A stretch of 64,000 nucleotides of DNA, from the NCBI GenBank assembly GCA_951406725.2, contig OX597816.1, forward strand, positions 80,414,001-80,478,000. The letters run 5' to 3'. The DNA is from Octopus vulgaris (taxonomy: Eukaryota). Both the position numbers and the translations under genes were made by a program. The notes under the pieces are model-generated. The model searched no databases. It worked only from the letters and a program-made list of their open reading frames with translations, and had not been told where the DNA came from. This document shows positions 3,788-58,814 of the stretch, one piece after another (position 1 is the first letter of the stretch; every line of letters begins with the position of its first letter).

Positions 3788-4365
3788 GACATAGAAAAGT
3801 TATCGAAGGTGGTAGAGACTTTATAGAGCTAGAAAACTATTACAAAATAACCACCATATGACTACAGAAATACCTACTTCAGAAGCAAGGAAAGCCGATA
3901 TAGATAGCCATAAAAACTGTTTTCAGTCTTTAAGGAAGCTGTCAAATACAAAAAAGAAGTCATAGTACCTAACAACAACGAAGAAAAAGAAGAAACAACA
4001 GAAGCTGTAAAAAAAACTGAAATCCAAACTAAAACTGGTACAGCAACGCATTATCATATAACAATAGCAAGAAAACCCCGTAGATGGCAAATATTGAGTT
4101 AAGCTAAGCAGAAAAGAAATAGACAAAGCAAAATCCTAACAATGGCTGTGAAGCTCAGGACTGACAGCAGAGACTGAAGCATTTTTAATTGCAGTACAAG
4201 ATCGAAACCTTCCGACCAGAAATCACCAAAACCACGTAATCACCAAAACCAAGTAACTGCAGAATATGTGGTGATGGAGAAGAAACAAAAAATCATATTG
4301 TCTCTGGCTGCCCAATGCTGGCTAAGAAGGAACATATTTACAAACACGACAGTGTTGGGACACTG
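3788..4365 (+). mobile_element. R4/Dong-clade fragment (post-RT region plus CCHC knuckle), same family as the 50268-51152 copy
   Basis: WL*SSGLTAETEAFLIAVQDRNLPTRN..CRICGDGEETKNHIVSGCPMLAKKEHIYKHDSVGT; bounded by (TAA)n on both sides. Confidence 0.85.
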
Positions 4366-8199: not shown

Positions 8200-9540
8200 A
8201 GCTGTCCCAGAAATAATTATTTAGTTATATTCTCAACTACTGAATTAGCAAAAGATATACAAGAAAATAGAAAAATATGATTTATATCAGCCACAATACG
8301 AAGAGATTATATTTACGACATATACCGGGTAAAATTGATGATGAGGCTTCTGAAACTAGACAATTAATAAAAAAATATCTACTGTAGCACTAGAAAAGGC
8401 GCCCAGTAAAGAATGATTAATATAAATATCTAAGGAGTATGAAGAAAAGAAAAAAAAACACCTTAAGGAAGATGAAAATATAGACTGATGAAGTAGACAT
8501 TTGTGATGTGAAACAAAATAAATTGTTAGAAAAAACAAATAACTATGGTGAAAGTAGAGCAATAGAATGCCATGCTAACATGATGAAAAGCGCTCCTATA
8601 TGACCAATATCTAGGAGGGGGTGGCTGTATAAAATTTAAGTAGAGAAATATTTCAGAATCGGCTGAGTAGCGCAACGCTCAAAATGAATGACCAAATCAT
8701 TTGCACTAGAGACAACTAAAAGTATTTAATGAAACAGAATGCAATAAACAGGAAATAATAAAGTAGATATCAACATACTTAATATAGTAAGCTATGAAAT
8801 TTTAATTAAGTCCACTTCAACTGTCGTGATGAGAAGAAGACACTATATTAATAATCAAATCCAGACACCCGGATTTTGAATTAAGATTAAATTGAAATAA
8901 TCAACATTGGAGAGTGAAATAACTCTGGACATGTTCTGACATTATTAGACTTAGTAACAGTCTATGTTTGCTAAATCTTAGACTACTTATGAAATATAGA
9001 GGATTAGAATTAATTGAAAATAGAATGCGGGGGGGGGGATTTTTATCAATGTCTGAACATATGGAAGTTGAAAGAAAGAATTAACGCATTGTTTGTAGTT
9101 CTCTTATAATTAGCAAACGAGAATACTCTGCTGGAATTATCACAGCTGGGAACTTCATCCATGAAAATCACACCAGCATTATAAAATTCTGACAGTCTGT
9201 TCATCGTATAAACAAATAATAGAAAGATGATCATACTCTGGGATATGGCAATCAATAGATATGGAGATTAAAGAAAACCCGTTGAATATTATCAAGAACT
9301 ACTGGGAAAAGAAATACATCCTCATCGGATCTTTCTCAATAGACAATAGTATATTACAGACAGTAATAGAGAAATTAGCCAGATGCAAAGATTTAGAAAC
9401 AGAGATAACCAGAATGTTTGGATTTTATACAAAAACATACCTTATCATAGTATTTGGTTAGAAGATTTGGAAATGATTTAAAGAAGGCGCAGAAATATAT
9501 TTGCCTTTACATTCCAGAAACCTAACATTCCGGGAAAGGA
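8200..9540 (+). mobile_element. Old, heavily decayed R4/Dong-like remnant
   Basis: ORF 9261-9461 EKLARCKDLETEITRMF..IIVFG matches EKLSKYKDLEIEVTRMW of the younger copy; upstream boundary uncertain. Confidence 0.55.
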
Positions 9541-13364: not shown

Positions 13365-13867
13365 GCAGTGAACTGGCAGAAACATTAGCACGCCGGATGA
13401 AATGATTTGCGGTATTTCGTCTACCGCTACGTTCTGAGTTCAAATTCCGCTGAGGTCGACTTTGCCTTTCATCCTTTCGGGGTCGATTAAATAAGTACCA
13501 GTTACATACTGGGGTCGATATAATCGACTTAATCCAGGTGTCTGTCCTTGTTGGTCCCCTCTGTGCTTAGCCCCTTGTGGGTAGTAAAGAAATAGGTATT
13601 TGGTCTGCCGCTACATTCTGAGTTCAAATTCCGCTGAGGTCGACTTTGCCTTTCATCCTTTCGGGATCGATTAAATAAGTACCAGTTACGCACTGGAGTC
13701 GATATAATCGAGTTAATCCGTTTGTCTGTCATTGTTTGTCCTCTCTTTATTTAGCCCATTGTGGGTAGTAAAGAAATAGGTGTTTCGCCTTTCTGTACGT
13801 TCTGAGTTCAAATTCCGCCGAGGTCGACTTTGCCTTTCATCCTCTCGGTGTCGATAAAAAGTACCAA
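13365..13867 (+). mobile_element. SINE family A, tandem multimer (head plus repeated ~180 bp body)
   Basis: tRNA-like head (CTGGCAGAA..., B-box-like GAGTTCAAATTCC); the core GTCGACTTTGCCTTTCATCC occurs three times. Confidence 0.9.
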
Positions 13868-44740: not shown

Positions 44741-46274
44741 TAGATAAATTGATACATACATATATATATGTGTGTGTATGTATGTTATCAGTATACAATG
44801 TATAATTATAGGTGAATATGTCTATATATATATATACACATGTGTGTGCGTGTATTTATATATGTGCATGTATATACATATTGTACAATTATTGGCGACC
44901 ATCTTTATATATGTATATAAAAGACAATTTAAGATCATCAAAGAGAAGAACTTAACTGCAGCTCTTGGTGGTCCAAAGCAGATATGCAATTTATGTGGGT
45001 GCCTCTTCAAAACGTTGCCTAGTTTATAAAGCCACATCAGGCGCCATGATAGATTTAAGGTGTAAGTACGAGAGGTGGCCAGACTCTGCATAAGAAGTAG
45101 ACAACAACCACCATACATATACATAAGTATAATTTCAGAGTGATCCACCTGCTACTTCTATTAAATCTGATCCTCATGTGGAATCTCAATCGTTCGCCCA
45201 TGTATATCACCTTAAACACAATGTGTACAAGTGTGCTTAATTACTACCTAAATACCTTCAAATACAAAAGCAAAATAGCTGACTTGGTCTGACAATCAGG
45301 ATTTTAATCTCGATTACTACCCACGTCAAACTGTGTTCTCTTTCTATGATTTAATAATGCCACACTTACACCTTATTTCCCTGGATCTTTCAATAACTGT
45401 ACGCTCTCCAAGCCTCAGCAGGTCATATTCCTCCTCACTGCGACTAAAACTGCATAAAACCCGTATTATTATCTTTCATGAGCTCGAGATGAAATTTTAA
45501 TTTCTCTTCAGTTCACACAGTTATGTCTTTTCTCACAAGTCTGCGAAGGATCGTGAATTTCCATGTAGCAATATATGATAAAATGCACGTCCTAAAATCG
45601 CCTTCCCAGTACTATTAGCCACATAACGACTTTCTTGATAGTGAACTGGCAGAATTGTAAGAGCGCCTTAAACATGTATTGCAATATTTGAACGATCTTT
45701 TTCAATTTTGAGTTCTAATCCGATCGAGGTCAACTTTAGTTTTCAACCTACCGGGATCGAAAAAGTAAGGAAATCGGCGATGCACACTAACCTCCACCCA
45801 TCAGAAATGCTAGCCATTTTTTTTTTATTTCAAAGCCAGTATATTTTATAATAGAAAATTCTATTCAGTGGCAGTTAAACCAAAATTATGCATATGTGAT
45901 AATAAATGTTTCATTACTAATATAAATATAAGACTTTTAATCTACATAGTGTTGTGAAAGTTTTGTGAGATTGTTGAGTTTCCTACTGTCTTTAGGTTAG
46001 ATCTAAAGACAGTAAGAAACTCAACAATGAAAGGCCTTTAATTCACCCTATTTACATATGTGCGAAGTTACAACCCTAACATATTGATATCTTCTATAAG
46101 GGAAAGTTTATTTAGTGCTTCAGCAATAGTGGTAGGAAAATAATGCATTTATGTATATTATCTAATTTGCTGATCGATTTGGAAAAGGTTAAGCTTTTAA
46201 GTACGAAAAGTACGAAACCTGCTGTTTCAATTTCTGATTGAATCTAAGCTATTCTATTTTCAATATTGTTCTTT

Positions 46275-46655
46275 AATTTTGGCATAAGGTCAGGAACTTC
46301 GGGGGAGGGGTTATTCGATTACATCGACATCAACATTTTAACCTTAAGTAACTACCAGTTGAGCGTTTGGTCGATGCAATCAACTCCCACCCTTCCCCGA
46401 ACTTGCTAGTCCTCTGCCAAAATTTGAAACCAATATTAATATACTATATTATATAAGGAGGTAAGATGGCAATCGCTGTGGACAAAATGCTTAGCGGCAT
46501 TTCTTCCGACTCTATATTCTGAGTTCAAATGACAAGTCGACTCTGCCTTTCACTTTTTAGGTCGATGAAATAAGTACCAGTTGAGGGATCGATGTAATCG
46601 ACCTACCCACTCTCCCCAAATTTGCTGGCCTTGTGCATAAAAATTTGAAACCAAT
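46275..46655. mobile_element. Cluster of diverged SINE family A fragments in both orientations
   Basis: TTCTGAGTTCAAAT..GTCGACTCTGCCTTTCA..AAGTACCAG..GCTGGCCTTGTGC; inverted tail at 46275-46330. Confidence 0.7.
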
Positions 46656-46916
46656 TTTGTTATAAATTAATATATTACTGAATTACTAAATGATTTATTG
46701 TAAAACTAATGAAGCCAATAGCAGCACAGTTTTAGTCCTCTTCAAATACTGGACTTTGAAAGAAAGTATATAATATCTATGAATAATATGCTTCAACCAA
46801 AACTCATTAGAGATACAATGGTGTCAATGAGAGTGAAGAGGCAATTCTTAAGGTTCAGTATCTTTTCAAGGCATTAATAAAGTAACAGAATAAGTACGGT
46901 GTATAGAGTGTAAACT

Positions 46917-47160
46917 GTGGAGGCGCGTAGCTTAGTGTCAGAACCATGATCGTAAGATTGTGGTTTCGATTCCTGGATGGGCGACGCGTTGTGTTCTTGG
47001 GCAAAACACTTTCACGTTGCTCCAGTCCACTCATCTGGCTAAATGAGTAACGCAGCGATGGACTGGCGTCCCGTCCAGCTGGGGAACACATACGCCATAA
47101 AAACCGGGAAAACGGTCCCATGAGCCTGGCTAGGCTTTAAAAGGGCGCATTTATTTATTT
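46917..47160 (+). mobile_element. tRNA-derived SINE with V-domain-like segment and 15 bp target-site duplication
   Basis: TATAGAGTGTAAACT at 46902-46916 and 47161-47175; B box TTCGATTCC; GCGATGGACTGGCGTCCCGTCCAG; (TTTA)n tail. Confidence 0.85.
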
Positions 47161-48388
47161 TATAGAGTGTAAACTAGATTTAAGTGTTTTTTGTTTAAGA
47201 AACATTTTTATTCTTTTAATCAAACGCATTCAGTCAAAATATGTTATTAAATACGTGTTTAGCAACATGCATATCATACGTTAGTAGGATACGGGAAAAT
47301 ATACATGTTCTTAAAGTATTTTCAAGAACTTTGACTTCAAACTAAAGTTTTAGTATAGTCATACTTTCCAAACCAAATGTTAGCATTACTGCAAACAGAG
47401 CTGTTACGACTAAATACAGGAACTGTTATGTGGCATCCGGATACCGAGCACCGGTTAACATTAACATGCTTCATACAAAAACAACCACAATTAAAACAAA
47501 TATGTTCGGATAATTTCATGAAAACACCCGCTTTATTCTAAAAGCTTTTAGTCTTGAGATTGAGGTAACCTTAAGAATATTTGCTTGCTTTCTACCAGAA
47601 TTAAACACATACACACATATATATATATATATAAACCGTGCTGTGTATCTATAAGTGTGTATGAGCTGATACGGATACATACATACATACATACATACAT
47701 ACATACATACATACATACATACATACATAATACTCCAAGAGAACTAAATGTTAACTTATAATATGGTGATTACTCTCCAATATGTCTTGAGTTGGATAAT
47801 AGCATTCTTCGTGGCATTTACATACATTTACAGCATTTCACACAGAATGTGACGGTTTTCCAATTTATATCTTGAAAATGGCAAACCACAGCCGAAGCAC
47901 ATTTATATAAATGACTTCTTAATCCGGCCTAAAGCCCCCCACTTGTGTAGGAAGGTTTATATTTGATAGAGTCAATGTCCAGTATATGACCGGTATATTT
48001 TGTTTGAAGATGATTTATAACATTTTCTTTCTAAAAATATTCCAAAGATATTAAATACTTAACTTATGCAATATATGTTGGCAAGACACTTACATCATGA
48101 CAATTTTGTACAGTTTCTATAAAGAGAGACATAACCAAATATTGGAACTGGCAAAACACGACAGTTTTATTAATTGTCTCTTATTAATGATCACTGAAAA
48201 TTATTCATGATCATTGAAGTTAAAGAAAAAACTTCTTCAGTCTATACAGAAAAGTAGTGTTGAGTGAAACGGCTTCAAATAATTCTCACAATAAAAAAAA
48301 GAAAAAAAAACACGATCTTATTTATTGCTTCCTGTAATAAATTATGCATCAATGAAACTACTTTATACACCTTTTAATATTCTCTCTT

Positions 48389-48776
<388 letters not shown>

Positions 48777-50140
48777 CTTCGGAATGTAAATTAAATTCAT
48801 ACTAAATCGTTATAATATTGTTTTGGTGAAATATATTTTTACTTTTATGGTAGTTGTCAACAATTATTGACAATAAAGTTACTTCATATTTCAAAGTATT
48901 AATAACGAGAGGCACTTTAGCGAAACCACAAGACTGAAGATTATTATTATTATTGTTGTTGTCGTTGTTGTTATTATTATTATCATCGTTATTATTATGA
49001 TATTTGTTGTTATTGCTGTTCTTCTTCTTCCTCTCTTCCTCCTACTCCTCCTTATCATCATCATCATCATCATTCTTATTGTTGTTACTGTTAAGTTTTA
49101 ACATGATTGTAGAAGGCTGAAAGTGTACGGGGTCAAATGAAATGTCTGCCATTCGATCAGGTTCAAATGCCGTTTGGAAGGGAAACCAAGATATATATAT
49201 GCAGCAATAAAATTATATAATAAGAACTAGTCGTATAGGGAAACTGGTTCATTACCTAAACCCTCACTGCACAGAGTAATCAGTGATGAGGATTTACAAC
49301 GCTTGCATGCACACACACACAGAGAGACACACGAACACGCATACATACATAAACGTGCTCGCGTGCATTCGTGTGTGCGCGCGTATTAGGTCTGTTTGCG
49401 TTTGATAAGTCTAAACAAATCTTTTATTTAAACTTGGAATTATTTAAAGAACCTTTGATTTTAATTTCTGGTTGTTGTATCTCCTAACCAATGAATCCTG
49501 ATCTGGTCCGTCACAAACAAGCGAAGTTCTTTCTGTTTTTGTCCTACCGATAAATGAGAATTTCATATGTCAATATATCATAAGGTCGATGACAGACGTA
49601 TCACGTCGGTTTTAATTAAATTCTCTTCACTTAACCACTAGCGTGTAATGGATTTCAGTCTACAGTAAATATAGATTTTGAACTCCTAGTGGCATTTACA
49701 AGATTGCCTTCATGAAGTCTTGCACATGACTTTTAGAGAACCCGTAGGTGTGTATCTATAAAGATTGCAGGGTAAAATAATTCCGCTCAAGTGGTTTGTT
49801 GTTCCGTATTCTAGTCTCATTGAGGGTTTTAACTCCGTAATGCAGGGAACGTATGTTAGTGTTCTTGGTGCATAAAATTTAGAGCTGTGAGAAATAATTA
49901 ACCATATGTTTTTATGTTGAGAAGCGACGATAATCATATTTAAACCATGGGGCTTTATTTCAGAGCAACGATAAGATTTAAATATATTTGAATACTTTCA
50001 CATTGGATACGTGTCGAATGTTTTGTTCAAATATAAAACGTTATAATACAGTTCTATATATTAAGAGATGAGGAATTATGAACATTACTTATATTAATTA
50101 CATTTGACGGCGGATATTTGTCCTCATCTTGTTTGTTGTT

Positions 50141-50186
50141 AACACAACGTTTCGGTTGATATACCTTCCAGCCTTTATCAGGTGTC
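50141..50186 (-). ncRNA. Minimal type I hammerhead motif, one core substitution
   Basis: GACAC-CUGAUAA-A-GGCUG..CAACC-GAAA-CGUU-GUGUU; G8>A relative to CUGAUGA. Confidence 0.65.
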
Positions 50187-50267
50187 TTGGGGAATTTTCG
50201 AACCTGAGTTCTCATTCCGAGGGTATTTTTCGATGTTGTTACTATTATTGCTATTATTATTATTATT

Positions 50268-51150
50268 CAGTAGTTTTATTTTTATAGCGTGCTTTCACCT
50301 CGCTACCGAGCGCAGCTCTGTGTGCCTTGGGTATGTGCTGTGATTTGTTGTGATGCTCTGATGGTTATTGAATGGAAAGTGTTCTGTGTAGGATGTGTGC
50401 AGTGCCTATTAGTGCAATTTTCTGTATGTTATATGTGTTTGTAAGTCCTGATGTTTTTGTTATGTATTTGTCTGAATATTTTTTTATCATGCCTAATGCA
50501 CCTACTATGATAGGAATTGTTTCTGTTTTCAGATTCCACATTCTAGTTACCTCTATTTCTAGGTCTTTGTATTTTGAGAGTTTCTCCATTTCTTTTAGAG
50601 ACACGTTGTCATCTGCCGGTATTGATACATCAATTAGAAAGCATTTTTTTTCTTCATGATCTCTGACAACTATATCTGGTCTGTTGGCCTTAATTTCTCT
50701 ATCTGTGTGTATCGGCATATCCCAGAGTATGGTTGCTTTCTCGTTTTCTGTGACCTTTTCTGGTGTGTGCCTATACCATCTTTTTTCTGTTGTTATTCAA
50801 TAATGTTGGCATAGCTTCCAATGTATGTAGGTTCCAACTCTGTCATGTCTGTGAATATATTTCTTCTTAGCCAGGACTGGGCAGCTAGAGATAATATGAT
50901 TTATTGTTTCTTGTCCATCTCCACATATTCTGCAGTTACTTGTAATATTTCTTTTCATTACATGTTTTTGGTAATTTCTGGTGGGGAGGCATTGGTCTTG
51001 TGCTGCAATTAAAAATCCCTCTGTTTCTGCTTTAAGTCCTGAGCTTCTCAACCATTTCTGGGATTTTTCTTTGTCTATTTCTTTTGCGTTTAGTTTAGAC
51101 CAGTATTAGTTAGTCCAGTATTAGTTTAGTCCAGTATTAGTCCAGTATTA

Positions 51151-51152
<2 letters not shown>
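50268..51152 (-). mobile_element. Young 5'-truncated R4/Dong-clade copy (CCHC plus RLE plus 3' UTR) inserted in (TAA)n
   Basis: ORFs 50797-51051 and 50365-50718 share one frame, broken by a single TGA: CRICGDGQETINHIISSCP..RHD..ANRPDIVV..LIDVSIP..EKLSKYKDL. Confidence 0.93.
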
Positions 51153-51198
<46 letters not shown>

Positions 51199-51211
51199 TT
51201 AAATATTATTA

Positions 51212-51337
51212 TTCAGGTCACTGCCTGGAATCGAACTCGAAATCTTGGGGTTGGTAGCCCGCGCTCTTAACCACCACGGCATATGCCCACGGGCATATGG
51301 CGTAGTGGTTAAGAGCGCGTTCGATTCCAGGCAGTGA

Positions 51338-51343
<6 letters not shown>
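51212..51343. promoter_or_regulatory. Divergent pair of tRNA-derived Pol III type-2 promoter heads
   Basis: A box TGGCGTAGTGG / TGCCGTGGTGG and B box GTTCGATTCC on opposite strands around CCC-AC-GGG. Confidence 0.75.
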
Positions 51344-51399
<56 letters not shown>

Positions 51400-51464
51400 G
51401 CAATAATAGTAACAACATCGAAAAATACTCTCGGAATGAGAACTCAGGTTCGAAATTACCCCAA

Positions 51465-51510
51465 GACACCTGATGAAGGCTGGAGGATATATCAGCCAAA
51501 ACGTTGTGTT
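51465..51510 (+). ncRNA. Minimal type I hammerhead motif, one core substitution
   Basis: GACAC-CUGAUGA-A-GGCUG-loop-CAGCC-AAAA-CGUU-GUGUU; G12>A relative to GAAA. Confidence 0.65.
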
Positions 51511-51552
51511 AACAACAAACAAGATGAGGACAAATATCCGTCAATTGTAAAT

Positions 51553-51870
51553 TAGCTTGCTAACCAACCACAAGTGTCTTCTGCTATAGCCCCGGGCCGA
51601 CCAATGCCTTGTAAGTAGATTTGGTAGACGGAAACTGAAAGAAGCCTGTCGTATATATGTATATATATGTATGTGTGTGTTTGTGTGTCTGTGTTTGTCC
51701 CCCTAGCATTGCTTGACAACCGTCACTTAGCGGTTCGGCAAAAGAAACCAATAGAATAAGTACTAGGCTTACAAAGGATAAGTCCCGGGGTCGATTTGCT
51801 CGACTAAAGGCGGTGCTCCAGCATGGCCGCAGTCAAATTACTGAAACAAGTAACAGTTTAAAAGATTAAT
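51553..51870 (+). mobile_element. SINE family B, truncated copy
   Basis: Collinear with 41005-41383. Confidence 0.85.
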
Positions 51871-52159
51871 GTAAATAATAAAACGTTATCATTTTAACCG
51901 TCTGTACACCTTTATATATTTCATTAGTCATTCAGTAGTCATCTGACATGTCTAGTGGTTTTGATATTCAATAGTCATTTGACATGTCTAGTGCTTTCCA
52001 CTGACTTTTAATTTAGTTCAGTATTACACAGTCACGCTTCCCTTAGTTACACAGTTCTTGGTGTCACAGTTTCGAAACCGGCGTTGGCTTACAGTGACGA
52101 CAGTTTGAACTACCAGTACTGTAAGCCATCGATGCTACCGTATAAAGGTCTGTACTTAC

Positions 52160-52891
52160 CTAAACTAAATAAACTGAAATGTTTAGCAGTAAGTGCACAG
52201 ACCAAAGACAGTGTGTATTGTCGGTGATACAATAGGGCTTGCCTAATTTTACCAACATCAGAAAGATAAAAGAAAAGTAAAAATCCGGTCGGAATATAGT
52301 TAATATTTTGCCTCTTCGAGGTAAATAGAATATGTACCAGTAAATCACTGAAATCATTTTTGTCAACAATAAACGTCCTCAAGCCAATGACATTATGTCT
52401 GTGTAATAAAACATTATTACTAGTACTATAAAACGTCTGTGTTGATATCAACGATGTGATTACTGGAATTATATTCATAAATCTCTCAAGCGCTTTCCAA
52501 AAGATACATGTAGAAAACAATACGACGGTTTTCCACATTTTCGCATTCAAGGTCTCAATAGTAGTATTTATTAGTTCCAAAAGCTCTTATTGAGAATGCT
52601 TATTTTAATACCATTGAACAGATATGAAAACCATAGAGGATAGGGAAAATAATGTAGAAAAGAATAAACATTTTGATATACAGTATAATAGCCCCAGCCA
52701 ACTCGACAGAAAAGGTAAAATAGGTAATTGGATTTCACTAGAAGATTGACAAACACCAGTGTCATAATATTGAATGATATTCCTATTGTCGTTGGGGGTA
52801 TATGGACGCATGAATAAAAACGAAAGTAATGGTTCGAAAAGAATTCAACAGGAGTTAAAATATTCTCAGCATGCCGAGAGATTGAACACAA
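52160..52891 (-). pseudogene. Possible host exon or decayed membrane-protein (GPCR-like) sequence
   Basis: Non-repetitive hydrophobic ORFs (IPPTTIGISFNIMTLVFV; VLFSTCIFWKALERF; YIFYLPR; LLLNISVYL) in shifting frames; consensus donor AG/GTAAGT at 52160/52159. Confidence 0.3.
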
Positions 52892-55873
52892 TAAATCAAC
52901 TTGCGTTGAAAACTAGAGGTGACATTGAGAAATCTGTGAAAGAGTATAAGTGGACGGTATCATGAAAACATTTGCAACAACAGCACCGTCCAACCCACAT
53001 AATTGATACCCAATTATGCATATTAGTTCTAGTATTAGTTGCAGTGTTTTATCAGTATCTACACTAATTCTTTCGACTGAATATACATGTACAGATAACA
53101 TGTGCGTGCGCGCGCATGTGTGTATGTGTGTTTGCATGTGTGCAAGACTACATCGAGTTGGTGTGCATGCATTATTTTAAAGATCTGGATATGTGAAATG
53201 CGCCCAGTCTTCTCAGTAAAATCAGAAGAGACTGCTTCAGCTAAATATAACCAGTAATAATCATTGATTTTCATTCTAATTGATGCTTCACCAGTCTCCC
53301 ATGAAATCCTATCCTAAACACAATACAATCAGAATCTCCCATTACCCAATACACCCAACACCATTGAAATATATCAACATCCTCAAGCATTACCGCTACC
53401 AATAACCACAAAAATAAAAACAGTACCACTATTTCCATCGTAAACAACTTCGCTAAAATTCCTTTATCATCATTCCTTACAATAAAAAGCAGACAATACT
53501 GTTTTCTAATGCATTTTATATCTTCAACGTATTAAAAACAGTTCTATTATTGAATACAATTCTGTTTGAGAGTCAGTTTTATAAAGGAATTTAACTGGAG
53601 CTAACATGAACACTCTAGAATGAACCGTATATCATATTGTCTGTCCTACTGAGCTTTAGCGAATTTTTTTTCGTCCCCTATTTTTCAGAGTATTCAAGTA
53701 AGAGAAATTAATTTTTTTTTCATATCATTTCACATATTTCTCTTCCATACTGCACCTTTCTATTTTAATAGAAAAGATGTGAACAATACCACGAGTATAA
53801 TATAAGGGAAAAGAACTGATATTATTTTCTCATTCACTCACATGTCGTTATTGAATATAATTTTCCCCTAAATAGAATTTATATCCTCCATATTCTATTA
53901 CTAATAATTCCAACGTGGTGATTATATTTACATTTTCTGTAAAGCTAAACCAGTCAATGAAGAGAGCCTGCTTCAGGCAAAGCAACTGCTATACTGTTAT
54001 TGGTTAAGTGATATCAGACCACATTTAGTTACTACTTCAATCCATCATCGTAAAATAGAACAAGCGAAAACATTAATAACGGACATTTGTGTCACCATAG
54101 TATTTTACAAAAGAACTTATGTCACGGCAATCAACTTCGAATTCGGAGAGACTAAGTAAAGTTTCAAATGAAACCACGTTCTATATTATTCAATGGAAAT
54201 CGCATTCCTTTAATGCATTACACTTTATTTCCTCTTTGGAAACCCTTTTTAGTTTTCTCACACGAACTTGCCATTTGAACTTGGTTCTCTTTTCAAAAGC
54301 GTTAATATAATATTGTTGCAATGGAGGTTGTATAATGCTTTCCTTATATAACGTTCGTGAATAGCGACAGACATGTTTACAAAGACACACTGCTACTATT
54401 CAAAGTAAATTACACACGCTGATTACCTTTATTATGAATTGGCATGAACATTAAAAAAAGAAAAGTAAAATAAGCAGAAAGAAAACGGTAAATTAATAGA
54501 AGGTATTTTGTAAATTCCATCGTGGTACTAATAGTCATACTACATACACAAAGTCTTTTATAGTTATATATGGGTAGCCATTTTGTTACAGCTATTCTAA
54601 CACCCAATGACTATGTTTCAAAGCAGTGCCTATACATATTCTTACTGTTTTCTTATCGGTATTAACACAATCGATATTGAATATAAATGAATAAGCAAAG
54701 TGAAATTAATATGGATCTATCTAATGGCAAAATAGTAGTTCTTTTTCATCTGCAATACTCTACGGTAATACATGCCAGTTGTGTTGATGTTTGACTAATT
54801 CCATGAGAAAAATACGATCGGAGCACGAATAGGTAATATAGAGATTTAAAGACCTTCGATCAGCTGAGACTAACCAAATAATTAGAAGATAAATCAACCT
54901 CTAGAGGTGTTTATAATTACAAATCACCAAAAAAGGGACATAACTTCAATAAAATTAGTTGATCGAATAAAAACGATAGCAATAGTAGTATAAACGGTCT
55001 TTAAAACCAACTGATGAAAGCACTAGTATATGTATTGTAATTTTGGTCAACTGATCTTATTTCATTATTCTCACTATTTATTGAGTTTAAATCCCCACTG
55101 GGAGATTTTATCTACTAATTGCACAGCTAATCGAGGTTTTCAGGTCACTATGTTGCAATATACGGGAGCTTACCGTATCTGTACTTAATGTTTAGAACAC
55201 TTCCCATAAGGTATTTTGCATTTGCAATATTCATTTCCAATTACATCAATAATATTGGTGAAAACTATATGACGGTTTCGATTTTCTTCTGTATCTATTT
55301 TACTTGAGGTACCTTTTGCTCTATCATTTTCTTCTTTTTTACGTTAAAGTTGTATGCATTTTCATAAAATATTTGAAAATAGATGATATACAAAAGAACT
55401 ATATATCAAGGAAGAAAGCTAAAGATTTCAAGATCCTATTTGCTCCAAGTTTTCATTCTGTAAGTAAACGAAAGCCAGTAGAATCAGCCAACTAGGTATA
55501 ACCTCATCCAGGTTTCCACTTACTATGTACTCGTGATCTTACAACCTATTTGTGATAATTGATTTCTTTTGACTAAGCACAAAAGCTGGTGACTAAAAGA
55601 AGGAAACCTTTTATGCATGTTTTTAAAAATCTATTATGGAGTGAAACGGTTTAAAGCAGATTGTGACTTTTGACAATTTGAACAAAAGTTCGCAGACTGC
55701 CCTTTTAGTTAATACTTGTCAATGTATCTTTTTTTATATGAAAAAAATTATTTATTTCCTGTGTATATTTGTCTTCTGAAGGATATTTTTCTTATCGATT
55801 TATCTTTAGAGAGAATATGACATCGAATTCTTTTATCAAAAGAGTATATTATATAGCTCTCTCTCTCTCTCTG

Positions 55874-55923
<50 letters not shown>

Positions 55924-58814
55924 GGTGTGTGTGTGTGTGTGTATACATAAATATACATGCATATATAGACATATGCACGCACATGTATACATATATTCAC
56001 CCGTGAGCGTGCAGACACATATACTCATATATATAATTCTTGAGACTAGAACTAGTCTAATTTGTTGCAGTTTCACTGTCCTTATCCAAAAGATAGAGCT
56101 TTTTAAGAATCTCCCGTCGCCATCATGTTTTCGTAATGCTACAATCGTTTATTACAGCCAAATAAGTTTTTATACAATGTGAAGGCTGAATAGATATCCA
56201 CAGTTGATAAACGGAGCGTTTATTTTTCAATAATCAAACAACCTGGATCTTTATATTCTGTCAAAATTATTTATCATTTCAGAAATAACATATCACATAA
56301 TATGTTTTGATGAAGCATTGCCCTCTACTTTACAATTATAGTGCTGAATTTTACAATATTTCCTTGTTATTGCCGTACGATGCAATATTTTTCATAGGGA
56401 ATCTTAGAACAATACCAATTGAATGACTGTGTTGTATCGTACTAAACTAAGCTCACACGTCAAAGTAATATGTTATAGTGGTTCTGAATTTACCTAACAA
56501 ATTAGTAAAGAAATCGAAAGCAGAATTACTCTAATTAGTGATGACAGCTGAATCGTGTCACAAGTCTTATCATAAACGAGTATTTAGGGAGCATTATTAA
56601 CAATATTATGCATGAAATGTAATGAGTAATTTCTTATCTAAACAAAGTGCTGTAATGTTGGAGATAAACATTCTAGAAATTAAATCATCACAGATTATTT
56701 GCTCTATCTAGCAAATTTCCTTAGGAAGGCACGAACATTGCTGCTCTCGTTATCCATGAAACCAAAATAACTTTTAATCCTTACGTGATCACGAAAAGCC
56801 AAGGATTTTATTCTCTTCATAACAATAATGAAGTGGGATAAATATTCATTATGCATTATGTTTATCTATTTAGAAAATAAACAAAATAGACTGTTTTCTA
56901 TATCTGATCAGACAGAAAATATCTGAAAATATTTCCTGTCTTGATAGAGACTATTGCAATCTAATTATGTTTCACAATGTCAGGTCAGTGCTAAAATGAA
57001 ACAGCGCATAGAATAAAAATTTCTACTTGACGACAAAGTGAAGACATTGAATTCAAATTAGAAGCATCCTTCATTAGGATTTCTTGTCAGCAAATATCTC
57101 TCATCAGTTTTGAATCATACGCATAGTTAATATGATTATACTGCAATACAATTACAATGTTTCGATTGGAACATTTATTTATAGTCTTAAAGGTCTAATG
57201 TTACAAAATGTATGAGTTCCATTAAAAATAATAAGTAAATATATTTTTGTTTTAATGGAACTGGGCTATGGCAGGAATGTGAGGTATCATACAAATCAGG
57301 AATTTGAGCTATATGCTATTTTTTCAACGAATTACGTGTATACAATACTTTTTCCTGGTAGATAGTTATAACAAATCAACAGGAGTGAAAGAAAATTATC
57401 AAAACAATTTCAAAATATTTCTTGTCATTCTTTAAAAGTACTTTTTAATACATATATTGTTATATTTCGTACTCAACAGGAGACACGTGGGGTGGAGAGT
57501 TGCTGAAGAGGTCACAGGATGTGTGGCGAAACATTTTCAGACAAAGGGCATAAAATAAGAACAATAATAAACCAGTGAAGAAAGAATATCTTATATGTGT
57601 GTTTATTTGTGAAGAACTAGAAATGATCATCCCGAAATATAACAATATCTATTTCAACACGCGATTTCACATTCGGAATCTTGCAAAGCAAATAAATACA
57701 CGTAACTTTTTAATACAATTTTATTCATATTTGCAGTGGAGTTGGTGAATCCAAGTATATTGCTGAATGCTTCCCTTACTAATCCTAGATTTATGTAAGG
57801 TAAAGACTATTCTGAAAGAATTTTAAGACGGAAGAACGTTTTGAGAGCAAGTGAAATATTTTAAACACAACACAAATGTTCTAAACAAAGAAAGTCTTGT
57901 GACGGTAAAACATTCTAAAAATAACAGTTGAATAACCTTTAAATTGCATTGTACTATTATAAAATAGGATGAATGGTACACTAGGATATGCCTGAATATA
58001 ATGCATGATCCTAACAGAAGCATCTTTTCTATTATGTCTACTGAATGAAAACTAACCAAAGGCTAAACATCAACAGTAACCATTGAGATTTTAATTACAA
58101 ATTATTAAGAACGTAGCGATGTCTCTATCATTTATTAGTAATTCATAATTAGAAAGTGAAACGTAAGTCAGTCTGTTTCTATCTTTGGAGAATATAGAAA
58201 TTTATATTACTTATACAGCTTATAGCTGTTAGAAAACACGAAAATGCCAGCTTCATAATCTTCCTTTTACGAAACTTTAATATTAAATTCATCATAAACT
58301 TTGAAGTATTGGTTTGTCTGTCTTGTATTTTGGCTTCGTTAGAATTGATGTTCTGGGCAACAGTAAATTTTATATTTTATACTCAGTTTATGAGAATGAC
58401 ATCCAATTTAGATGTATAGCTTTAAACTACTACATATGTTGTTTTGTCCCTTGCATATCAATAGTCATGTGTCATTACATTATCGCAAGTTTACACGAAT
58501 ATGTAAGGGAGAACTACAACATGGAATCAAAACCAAAATGTATGCTATACATCCCTTTAAGATATGTACTGAAGATATTAACGGTTAAGAGTGATCCCTT
58601 CATATTCCATTAAAAAGTATATACAAAGAATTAATAATACAAAGAATAGATTGAAAACTAATATAACATATAAATTGTTGTACATGAAGTCTCTCAAGAC
58701 TTGTAGCGTACTTTTGTTATCTGTCCCATAGAAGTGAAGGTAAAAGAAGCTCGGCATGATGTGAATTCGGAGACTTTTGGGATGGAATCTATATTCTGTG
58801 TCTGAGTGCATATA

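What the first reader, a model, noticed from the sequence alone, without database searches (positions are those of the whole stretch)
50098..51550. Palindromic SINE-hammerhead element: divergent tRNA heads, (AAT)n spacers and a ribozyme on each arm
Seen: removing the nested R4 insertion leaves an inverted dimer with a 2 nt centre. Each arm reads outward as tRNA-like A/B-box head, (AAT)n, ~150 nt body containing GACAC-CUGAUGA-A-GGCUG..CAGCC-GAAA-CGUU-GUGUU. The two arms carry different single core mutations (G8>A left, G12>A right), so their consensus is an intact hammerhead. No T4 Pol III terminator lies between head and ribozyme in the element's own sequence. Known: minimal type I hammerheads with palindromic stem III (here AACGUU) are typical of Penelope-like elements and retrozymes and cleave as dimers. 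Inference: a Pol III-driven, ribozyme-processed non-autonomous retroelement, possibly mobilised by Penelope RT, whose two identical outward transcripts could supply each other's dimer partner. I do not know of a described family with this architecture. This copy is probably inactive (24 nt deletion between the A and B boxes on the right, LINE insertion on the left).
Basis: partly seen in the sequence, partly recalled or inferred. Interest (0 to 1): 0.9.

Follow-up and report, generated by a model that had tools for sequence, protein, structure and literature searches.

The report
Penelope terminal repeat with tRNA head
This is a damaged back-to-back pair of the end repeats of an abundant protein-coding jumping gene (a Penelope-type retrotransposon), not a separate small element; the unusual part is that the repeat begins with a captured tRNA sequence that likely serves as the element's promoter.

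Summary
The palindrome, tRNA-like heads, (AAT)n spacers and hammerheads are real. The insertion is larger than reported: 50045-51877, inside a 12-bp target duplication. It is not a stand-alone SINE family. The unit is the terminal repeat (pLTR) of an autonomous Penelope/Poseidon-type retrotransposon: 29 of 30 loci picked by the ORF's C-terminus carry the head about 40 nt after the stop, and the "body" is the ORF's start. Head-start and ORF-joined copies share one majority sequence. Head-to-head pLTRs, junction palindromes, tails and minimal hammerheads are known Penelope features. What I did not find described is a tRNA-derived (Arg-like) module at the start of an autonomous element's pLTR. 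Copies end sharply there (19 of 29, about 10 times background), and the 2.66-kb majority sequence has no T4 terminator (suggestive only). I infer a transcription start at the hairpin, probably by Pol III, with cDNA fold-back making the fixed centre. RNA-seq was uninformative. This scan found the same family before on other DNA of this genome, with both readings.

The parts
50033..50044 (+). Left target-site duplication ATAAAACGTTAT (12 bp)
   Evidence: the word occurs only here and at 51878 in the window
50045..50100 (-). Long Penelope 'tail' of the left arm; in full elements it continues into the ORF
50101..50250 (-). Left pLTR body = first codons of the ORF (ATG at 50215)
   Evidence: tblastn to P0003, 40% over 70 aa, E 1e-4
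50141..50186 (-). Left minimal type I hammerhead; G8>A (50176) and stem II mismatch (50156); predicted inactive
50268..51152 (-). Nested, 5'-truncated REL-endonuclease LINE (R4/Dong-like, name recalled) inside the left (AAT)n spacer
   Evidence: R2 proteins, E 0.008; the same 3' end abuts (AAT)n in L027 and L235
51153..51213 (-). Left (AAT)n spacer, inner part (outer part 50251-50267)
51216..51288 (-). Left tRNA-derived head, 73 nt, A-box with two changes, B-box intact; inverted copy
   Evidence: 42 of 73 ungapped identity to the genome's tRNA-Arg(TCG), L252
51284..51295 (.). Fold-back centre TGCCC-AC-GGGCA; the hairpin is also present in ORF-joined pLTRs; inferred transcription start at 51284-51285 (+)
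51291..51339 (+). Right tRNA-derived head, A-box 51298-51308, B-box 51319-51327, 24-nt internal deletion
51342..51412 (+). Right (AAT)n spacer
51414..51545 (+). Right pLTR body = first codons of the ORF (ATG at 51436)
   Evidence: 59% over 27 aa to P0003, E 3e-4
51465..51510 (+). Right minimal type I hammerhead; G12>A (51498); predicted cut site 51505/51506; predicted inactive
51553..51868 (+). Unrelated abundant repeat (SINE-like, internally deleted) nested in the right short tail; ends approximate
51869..51877 (+). Remainder of the right short tail; element end
51878..51889 (+). Right target-site duplication

Best explanation
This is one TSD-bounded insertion of two head-to-head terminal repeats (pLTRs) of an autonomous Penelope/Poseidon-type retrotransposon whose pLTR starts with a tRNA-derived module that likely acts as its internal promoter, probably for RNA polymerase III. 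Shown: full elements read pLTR (hairpin, 73-nt tRNA-like head, (AAT)n, ATG, hammerhead overlapping the first codons, tail), ORF of about 850 codons with RT and a C-terminal endonuclease domain, ~36-nt spacer, second pLTR. Inferred steps: (1) RNA starts at the G or T of TGCCCAC, 13-14 nt before the A-box, from any pLTR, so short pLTR-only RNAs are made as well as full-length RNA; (2) the element's protein nicks AT-rich DNA and starts reverse transcription in the tail, as shown in vitro for the anole element PAc; (3) cDNA running off the RNA 5' end ends in GCCC-GT-GGGC, folds back and copies itself for a few to many bases, then joins the other target end, often through a second tail-primed cDNA, giving a fixed 2-nt centre and variable second arms; (4) the minimal hammerhead would cut 70 nt after the ATG only as a dimer or with protein help. 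This copy then decayed and took two nested insertions.
For: ORF-anchored loci: head at a fixed place in 29 of 30, body within 200 nt in 27 of 30, inverted body upstream in 15 of 30. L152 reads body, tail, N-terminus, RT, EN, pLTR. Tail-to-ORF continuity in the 30 loci; L228 matches P0003 residues 18-140 at 46%, E 9e-32. RVT_1 E 2e-9 and 5.5e-10; best solved-structure match telomerase RT. Exact centres: 101 palindromic, 141 ORF-joined. 5' ends in a 3'-anchored sample: 19 of 29 copies that reach the head start stop within 25 nt of it (2.6% per nt against about 0.2% elsewhere, binomial p 3e-17). 80 of the first 100 of 310 non-ORF-joined GCCCAC copies show the fold-back bases TAT (hand count). Direct tandem junctions begin at GCCCAC (L227, L229, L232). 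TSD-like matches of 8 nt or more in 39 of 60 head-to-head loci against 30 of 2000 shuffled pairs. Facing arms share rare variants in 24 of 73 pairs against 7.6% of 5000 random pairs. No T4 in the 2663-nt majority; relatives of like T content average 2.95 per kb, P(0) about 0.017.
Against: No direct transcript evidence. One T4 variant about 110 nt past the tail is in 9 of 33 copies, some of which run on into the RT. G4 runs are also absent; 4 of 55 relatives without a tRNA head also lack T4 over the RT-EN match; shuffle tests on the first, incomplete majority gave only P 0.03-0.23. A Pol II start at the same place would give the same 5' boundary. In the window the arm that should be the primary cDNA (AC centre, + strand) has the deletion and the short tail, so the left arm is not a plain self-copy of it as it stands. 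Hammerhead core columns are no better conserved than others in dead copies (96.0 vs 95.4%). Pfam GIY-YIG hits only 2 of 26 alignment members.
Confidence: 0.78

Rival explanations
1. The tRNA sequence is a passenger: a tRNA or SINE head with an (AAT)n tail landed in an ancestral pLTR and hitchhiked. The element is read by Pol II, from a start at or near the same hairpin, or RT stalls and switches template at the hairpin on long RNA.
For: Penelope pLTRs hold Pol II promoters and often have palindromes at their 5' end (PMC3846280 passages; PMC8557442). L071 shows a 20-nt fold-back followed by a return to ORF sequence, so fold-back can occur with long templates present. T4 variant in 9 of 33 copies. 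T4-free RT regions occur in head-less relatives.
Against: The boundary lies 13-14 nt before the A-box, the usual Pol III spacing (recalled). No strong structure to stall RT (head fold z = +0.57). The T-rich stretch upstream of the hammerhead seen in most relatives is missing here. Relatives' pLTRs are full of T4; this one has none.
Confidence: 0.33
2. A distinct non-autonomous SINE lineage (tRNA head plus Penelope tail) propagates from its own master copies and borrows Penelope enzymes; ORF-joined heads are recombinants.
For: Short copies outnumber ORF-bearing ones (9 of 70 3'-anchored copies run more than 160 nt upstream of the head) and start at the head. Sm-alpha shows that Pol III-plus-hammerhead SINE-like repeats exist.
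Against: 29 of 30 ORF ends carry the head. 54 ORF-joined and 94 head-start copies have the same majority base at every column; they differ only in CpG decay. Heads without a body are mostly (AAT)n followed by other repeats (16 copies read).
Confidence: 0.1
3. One reading: the replicating unit is the palindrome itself, with two outward Pol III transcripts that supply each other's ribozyme partner.
For: Fixed AC/GT centre in 101 exact copies; arms share variants more than chance.
Against: The centre is already present as a hairpin in the single ORF-joined pLTR (141 exact copies). In 13 of 15 palindromes the second arm leaves the head within about 25 nt, each at a different point. An outward transcript carries one arm only and cannot copy the dimer.
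Confidence: 0.03

Closest known systems
Penelope/Poseidon-clade PLEs (anole Poseidon PAc, PMC11167929; Adineta Pen2a, PMC3846280)
   Same: RT plus C-terminal endonuclease ORF of about 850 aa; pLTR containing the first codons; hammerhead overlapping the ORF start; optional 30-40 nt tail; inverted 5'-truncated pLTR; palindromes at head-to-head junctions; 8-12 bp TSDs.
   Different: The pLTR begins with a full-length tRNA-derived module and (AAT)n; a TATA/Inr promoter and intron are what is described for other pLTRs. No A/B-box pair in 55 related loci.
Minimal hammerheads of metazoan PLEs (Cervera and de la Pena 2014, PMC4209133)
   Same: CUGANGA, one unpaired base before stem II, G10.1-C11.1, palindromic 15.2-16.2, 5-bp stem I; pairs on opposite strands 100-700 bp apart are reported there.
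   Different: Nothing in the ribozyme itself; activity not tested here.
Sm-alpha / Sj-alpha of Schistosoma (PMC6765202, PMC2770079 passages)
   Same: tRNA-related Pol III promoter followed by a hammerhead in an abundant animal repeat.
   Different: Non-coding tandem SINE-like repeats; here the module is the terminal repeat of a coding element and the ribozyme is the minimal PLE type.
TRIMp3 elements Cassandra, Helenus, Ajax (PMC10886601 passages)
   Same: Small-RNA-derived Pol III promoter inside a terminal repeat.
   Different: Those are non-autonomous LTR elements of 0.3-1.3 kb; that paper argues their autonomous partners must use Pol II and should not share the repeat. Here the autonomous element carries it.
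Animal non-LTR retrozymes (bioRxiv 10.64898/2026.07.22.740005, part 1 of 5)
   Same: Hammerhead-bearing non-coding units derived from pLTRs.
   Different: Retrozymes are direct tandem arrays; these are dispersed single or inverted insertions with TSDs.

Membership tests
EN+ Penelope-like element | Telomerase-related RT ORF | tested here: met
   RVT_1; best PDB match telomerase RT, E 1.2e-5; 2989 homologs
EN+ Penelope-like element | C-terminal GIY-YIG endonuclease with CCHH motif | tested here: inconclusive
   Motif VYSIPCSC..LYKGET..R..EH..DH..E present by eye; Pfam GIY-YIG hits 2 of 26 members, best E 0.0013; no fold obtained
EN+ Penelope-like element | pLTR that repeats the ORF start at the 3' end | tested here: met
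EN+ Penelope-like element | Inverted 5'-truncated copy, optional 30-40 nt tail, short TSD | tested here: met
   (long tail in 32 of 70)
EN+ Penelope-like element | Minimal type I hammerhead in the pLTR | tested here: met
   column counts on 300 copies; same layout with other stems in 11 of 12 relatives examined
EN+ Penelope-like element | Spliceosomal intron / Pol II promoter in the pLTR | tested here: inconclusive
   no T-rich acceptor-like stretch before the hammerhead; no clear spliced joint among those listed
Penelope/Poseidon clade | No CX2-5CxxC zinc-finger linker between RT and EN | tested here: met
   L148 translation read by eye; criterion from PMC8557442
Penelope/Poseidon clade | RT phylogeny with reference elements | not tested
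   no named reference sequences on hand
tRNA-derived SINE | tRNA-related head with A and B boxes | tested here: met
   43 of 73 ungapped to tRNA-Arg(TCG), best of 25 genes of 8 anticodons sampled
tRNA-derived SINE | Non-autonomous lineage separate from its partner | tested here: not met
tRNA-derived SINE | Transcribed by Pol III | not testable with these tools
   only indirect: 5' boundary and T4 counts
Non-LTR retrozyme | Direct tandem array of hammerhead units | tested here: not met
   window copy is an inverted pair; sampled loci are mostly single or inverted
Active hammerhead ribozyme | Self-cleavage after the NUH triplet | not testable with these tools
   both window copies have a core mutation; 69 of 251 copies keep core and both stems

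The most novel reading that the evidence does not exclude
An autonomous, protein-coding animal retrotransposon captured a tRNA-Arg gene as its internal promoter and is transcribed over its whole ~3-kb length by RNA polymerase III, with a sense strand purged of T4 terminators; every 3' pLTR then works as a built-in SINE, and the 5' hairpin of the RNA self-primes the cDNA to make the palindromes.
Probability: 0.27. Interest if true: 0.82.

Novelty: new variant of a known kind. Interest (0 to 1): 0.5.

Why it matters
How Penelope-like elements make their inverted ends is an open question; PMC3846280 argued that head-to-head palindromes need an antisense template. This family offers a simple alternative on a sense RNA (cDNA fold-back at a 5'-terminal hairpin) with one fixed junction that can be tested in the published in vitro system. 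If the head is a working Pol III promoter, an autonomous element and its SINE-like passenger are one sequence, showing a direct route from pLTR to SINE or Sm-alpha-like repeat. Full-length Pol III transcription would challenge the assumption that coding retrotransposons need Pol II. For annotation: thousands of copies (3403 exact 31-mer ends) that look like SINEs are Penelope ends.

Tried and rejected
ARAGORN on the window: no gene. Rfam: no tRNA or hammerhead match on 45000-56000 or on L053. Energy folding does not return the hammerhead core, and the head folds no better than shuffles. Sequencing runs: no RNA holder listed. Raw RNA-seq of three same-label runs laid on L154 and two of them on L229 gave similar depth in both directions, no start or end peaks and mostly under 95% identity; strandedness is unknown, so this is neither for nor against. 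For T4 counts I used 55 of the 79 loci, chosen for long matches. L001-L030 were left out because they were picked for likeness to the window arm. In one search two copies (L198, L202) fell just under the ORF-side threshold: 11 of 70 scored, 13 by eye. In one search L352 (-14) was moved to the head-start class as a fold-back. L363 and L364 are one locus counted twice. Sampled loci from pattern searches come from contig C1 (C1-C2) and favour less decayed copies. Rejected: palindromic master element; tRNA-Ser origin (anticodon reads ACT, but Arg(TCG) aligns best; Ser genes were not in the sample); special conservation of the ribozyme core in dead copies. Literature searches without a description of a tRNA-headed pLTR. 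Repbase and Dfam were not available, and I did not open the supplements of PMC13282606, whose repeat library may hold this family.

Full report
Observation. The described features are in the sequence. Two inverted matches (157 nt and 84 nt, both 95%) flank a centre TGCCC-AC-GGGCA at 51284-51295. Each arm has a tRNA-like head, (AAT)n and a body with a minimal hammerhead; the left has G8>A plus a stem II mismatch, the right G12>A. The insertion is longer than reported: 50045-51877, bounded by a 12-bp duplication found nowhere else in the window. It holds two nested repeats: a REL-endonuclease LINE 3' end in the left spacer and another repeat in the right tail. ARAGORN and Rfam see neither tRNA nor ribozyme. 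The host is a 2.8-Gb, 227-contig genome, probably an octopus (inference).

Family. The body gives 2872 first-look candidates, 40 scored. Exact patterns count 1757 heads and 3403 3' ends; at about 92% mean identity to the majority the real number is likely tens of thousands (estimate).

The unit is a pLTR. Locus L011 had coding sequence just upstream of the head. Searching with that 64-aa piece gave 3350 candidates. Of the 30 best loci, 29 have the head about 40 nt after the stop, 27 have the body within 200 nt, and 15 have an inverted body upstream. Walking upstream gave RT (RVT_1), open frames of up to 569 aa, 2989 homologs and telomerase RT as best solved match. L152 reads body, tail, N-terminus, RT, endonuclease region, pLTR, and the tail runs into the ORF in the loci. 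The body encodes MRTQVRNFPKTPDEGWRVYQPKRCV, homologous to the N-terminus of the 847-aa relative P0003 (46% over 125 aa for L228; both window arms match). The endonuclease has the expected motif by eye and no zinc-finger linker before it, which points to Penelope/Poseidon by the criteria in PMC8557442 (passages); Pfam support for GIY-YIG is weak (2 of 26) and no tree or fold was made.

No separate SINE lineage. 54 ORF-joined and 94 head-start copies have the same majority base at every column; they differ only in CpG decay. Of 70 head-anchored copies 55 have the body within 480 nt; 16 read by eye mostly show other repeats after the (AAT)n.

The palindrome is made at insertion. There are 101 exact palindromic centres and 141 exact ORF-joined junctions; both contain the same hairpin. 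In 15 palindromes one has two full heads, one has a short deletion, and 13 leave the head within about 25 nt, each differently. Head-to-head loci carry TSD-like matches (39 of 60 at 8 nt or more; 30 of 2000 controls). Facing arms share rare variants in 24 of 73 pairs against 7.6% of controls; the window arms share three in the body. These are known Penelope traits: inverted 5' pLTR, 31-bp tail, 8-10 bp TSD and junction palindromes (PMC3846280 passages; PMC8557442 passages), internal RT start at the tail and a protein-assisted hammerhead overlapping the ORF start (PMC11167929 parts 1-2 of 4), minimal hammerheads including opposite-strand pairs (PMC4209133 parts 1-2 of 4).

Ribozyme. Across 300 body copies the majority core is intact, with N7 variable (T 77%, A 17%); 128 of 251 keep the core and 69 keep core and both stems. 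Eleven of 12 relatives examined show the same layout with different stems, seven with the same CGUU end. Both window copies are predicted dead.

What is unusual. The head aligns without gaps to the genome's tRNA-Arg(TCG) (43 of 73), best of 25 tRNA genes of 8 anticodons. No A/B-box pair was found in 55 related loci. In 70 copies anchored at the 3' end, 15 stop in the body, 19 in the spacer, 7 inside the head, 19 at the head start and 10 further upstream (one reassigned); the head-start rate is about ten times background. Tandem junctions begin at GCCCAC, L215, a 5' pLTR that runs into the ORF, begins at the head, and 80 of 100 listed non-ORF-joined copies show fold-back bases. A transcript 5' end 13-14 nt before the A-box is the simplest cause. 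The 2663-nt majority (minimum coverage 15, 801-codon open frame) has no T4 and 32 A4; relatives of like T content give P(0) about 0.017. Against: G4 is also absent, a T4 variant is in 9 of 33 copies, 4 of 55 relatives lack T4 in the RT region, and shuffle tests are weak. RNA-seq did not help. My odds: pLTR identity 0.95; start at the hairpin 0.75; Pol III 0.55; full-length Pol III RNA 0.27.

Known and new. Pol III promoter plus hammerhead is known in Sm-alpha (passages); Pol III promoters in terminal repeats are known in non-autonomous TRIMp3 (passages); retrozymes derive from pLTRs (bioRxiv part 1 of 5). Eight searches and two cephalopod repeat papers (PMC13282606 part 1 of 3 and passages; PMC8967140 passages) showed no tRNA-headed pLTR of an autonomous element; Repbase, Dfam and supplements were not seen. 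Earlier scan notes, read after my reading was fixed, describe this family on other DNA: some as a Penelope-mobilised SINE, some as a tRNA-headed pLTR. My tests favour the second.

Verdict. Real, and mostly explained as an ordinary Penelope inverted insertion. The tRNA-headed pLTR with a sharp 5' boundary is a new variant worth a promoter test. Interest 0.5.

Noticed in passing
L027, L235, L126, L133, L181, L024, L054; window 50268-51152: The (AAT)n spacer of the pLTR is repeatedly hit by other repeats, including the same REL-LINE 3' end as in the window; it acts as a landing site that splits copies.
   Followed up: partly
L063:1000-2000: Both arms of this palindrome continue past the tail into about 100 nt or more of shared non-element sequence, suggesting a 3' transduction copied into both arms or a larger inverted duplication.
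   Followed up: no
L071:1100-1520: A 20-nt fold-back is followed by a return to ORF sequence in the sense of the main arm, i.e. template switches in both directions.
   Followed up: partly
L212, L225, L227, L229, L232, L233, L237: Internally deleted direct tandems: pLTR, 100-300 nt of ORF start, then a second pLTR; L229 and L232 share one junction, and L233/L237 form an array. These could be non-autonomous derivatives or retrozyme precursors with two hammerheads in cis.
   Followed up: partly
L310:2845-4680, L271:2610-4740, L282:600-2440: Distant Penelope relatives with no T4 across about 1.8-2.1 kb of ORF (7.4 expected in L310) although their flanks are T4-rich.
   Followed up: partly
L083 (reading, oriented 1466-2235): Fragment of a different RT family (YSRYVDD motif) upstream of a copy; perhaps another Penelope-like lineage.
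   Followed up: no
window 4100-4361, 9232-9452, 2542-2637: Further diverged fragments related to the nested REL-LINE (68-81% identity).
   Followed up: no
window 13411-13866: A 184-nt SINE-like unit in 2.5 tandem copies.
   Followed up: no
L296:6662-7429: Array of 135-nt repeats downstream of a Penelope relative, each weakly called tRNA-Cys at a relaxed ARAGORN threshold.
   Followed up: no
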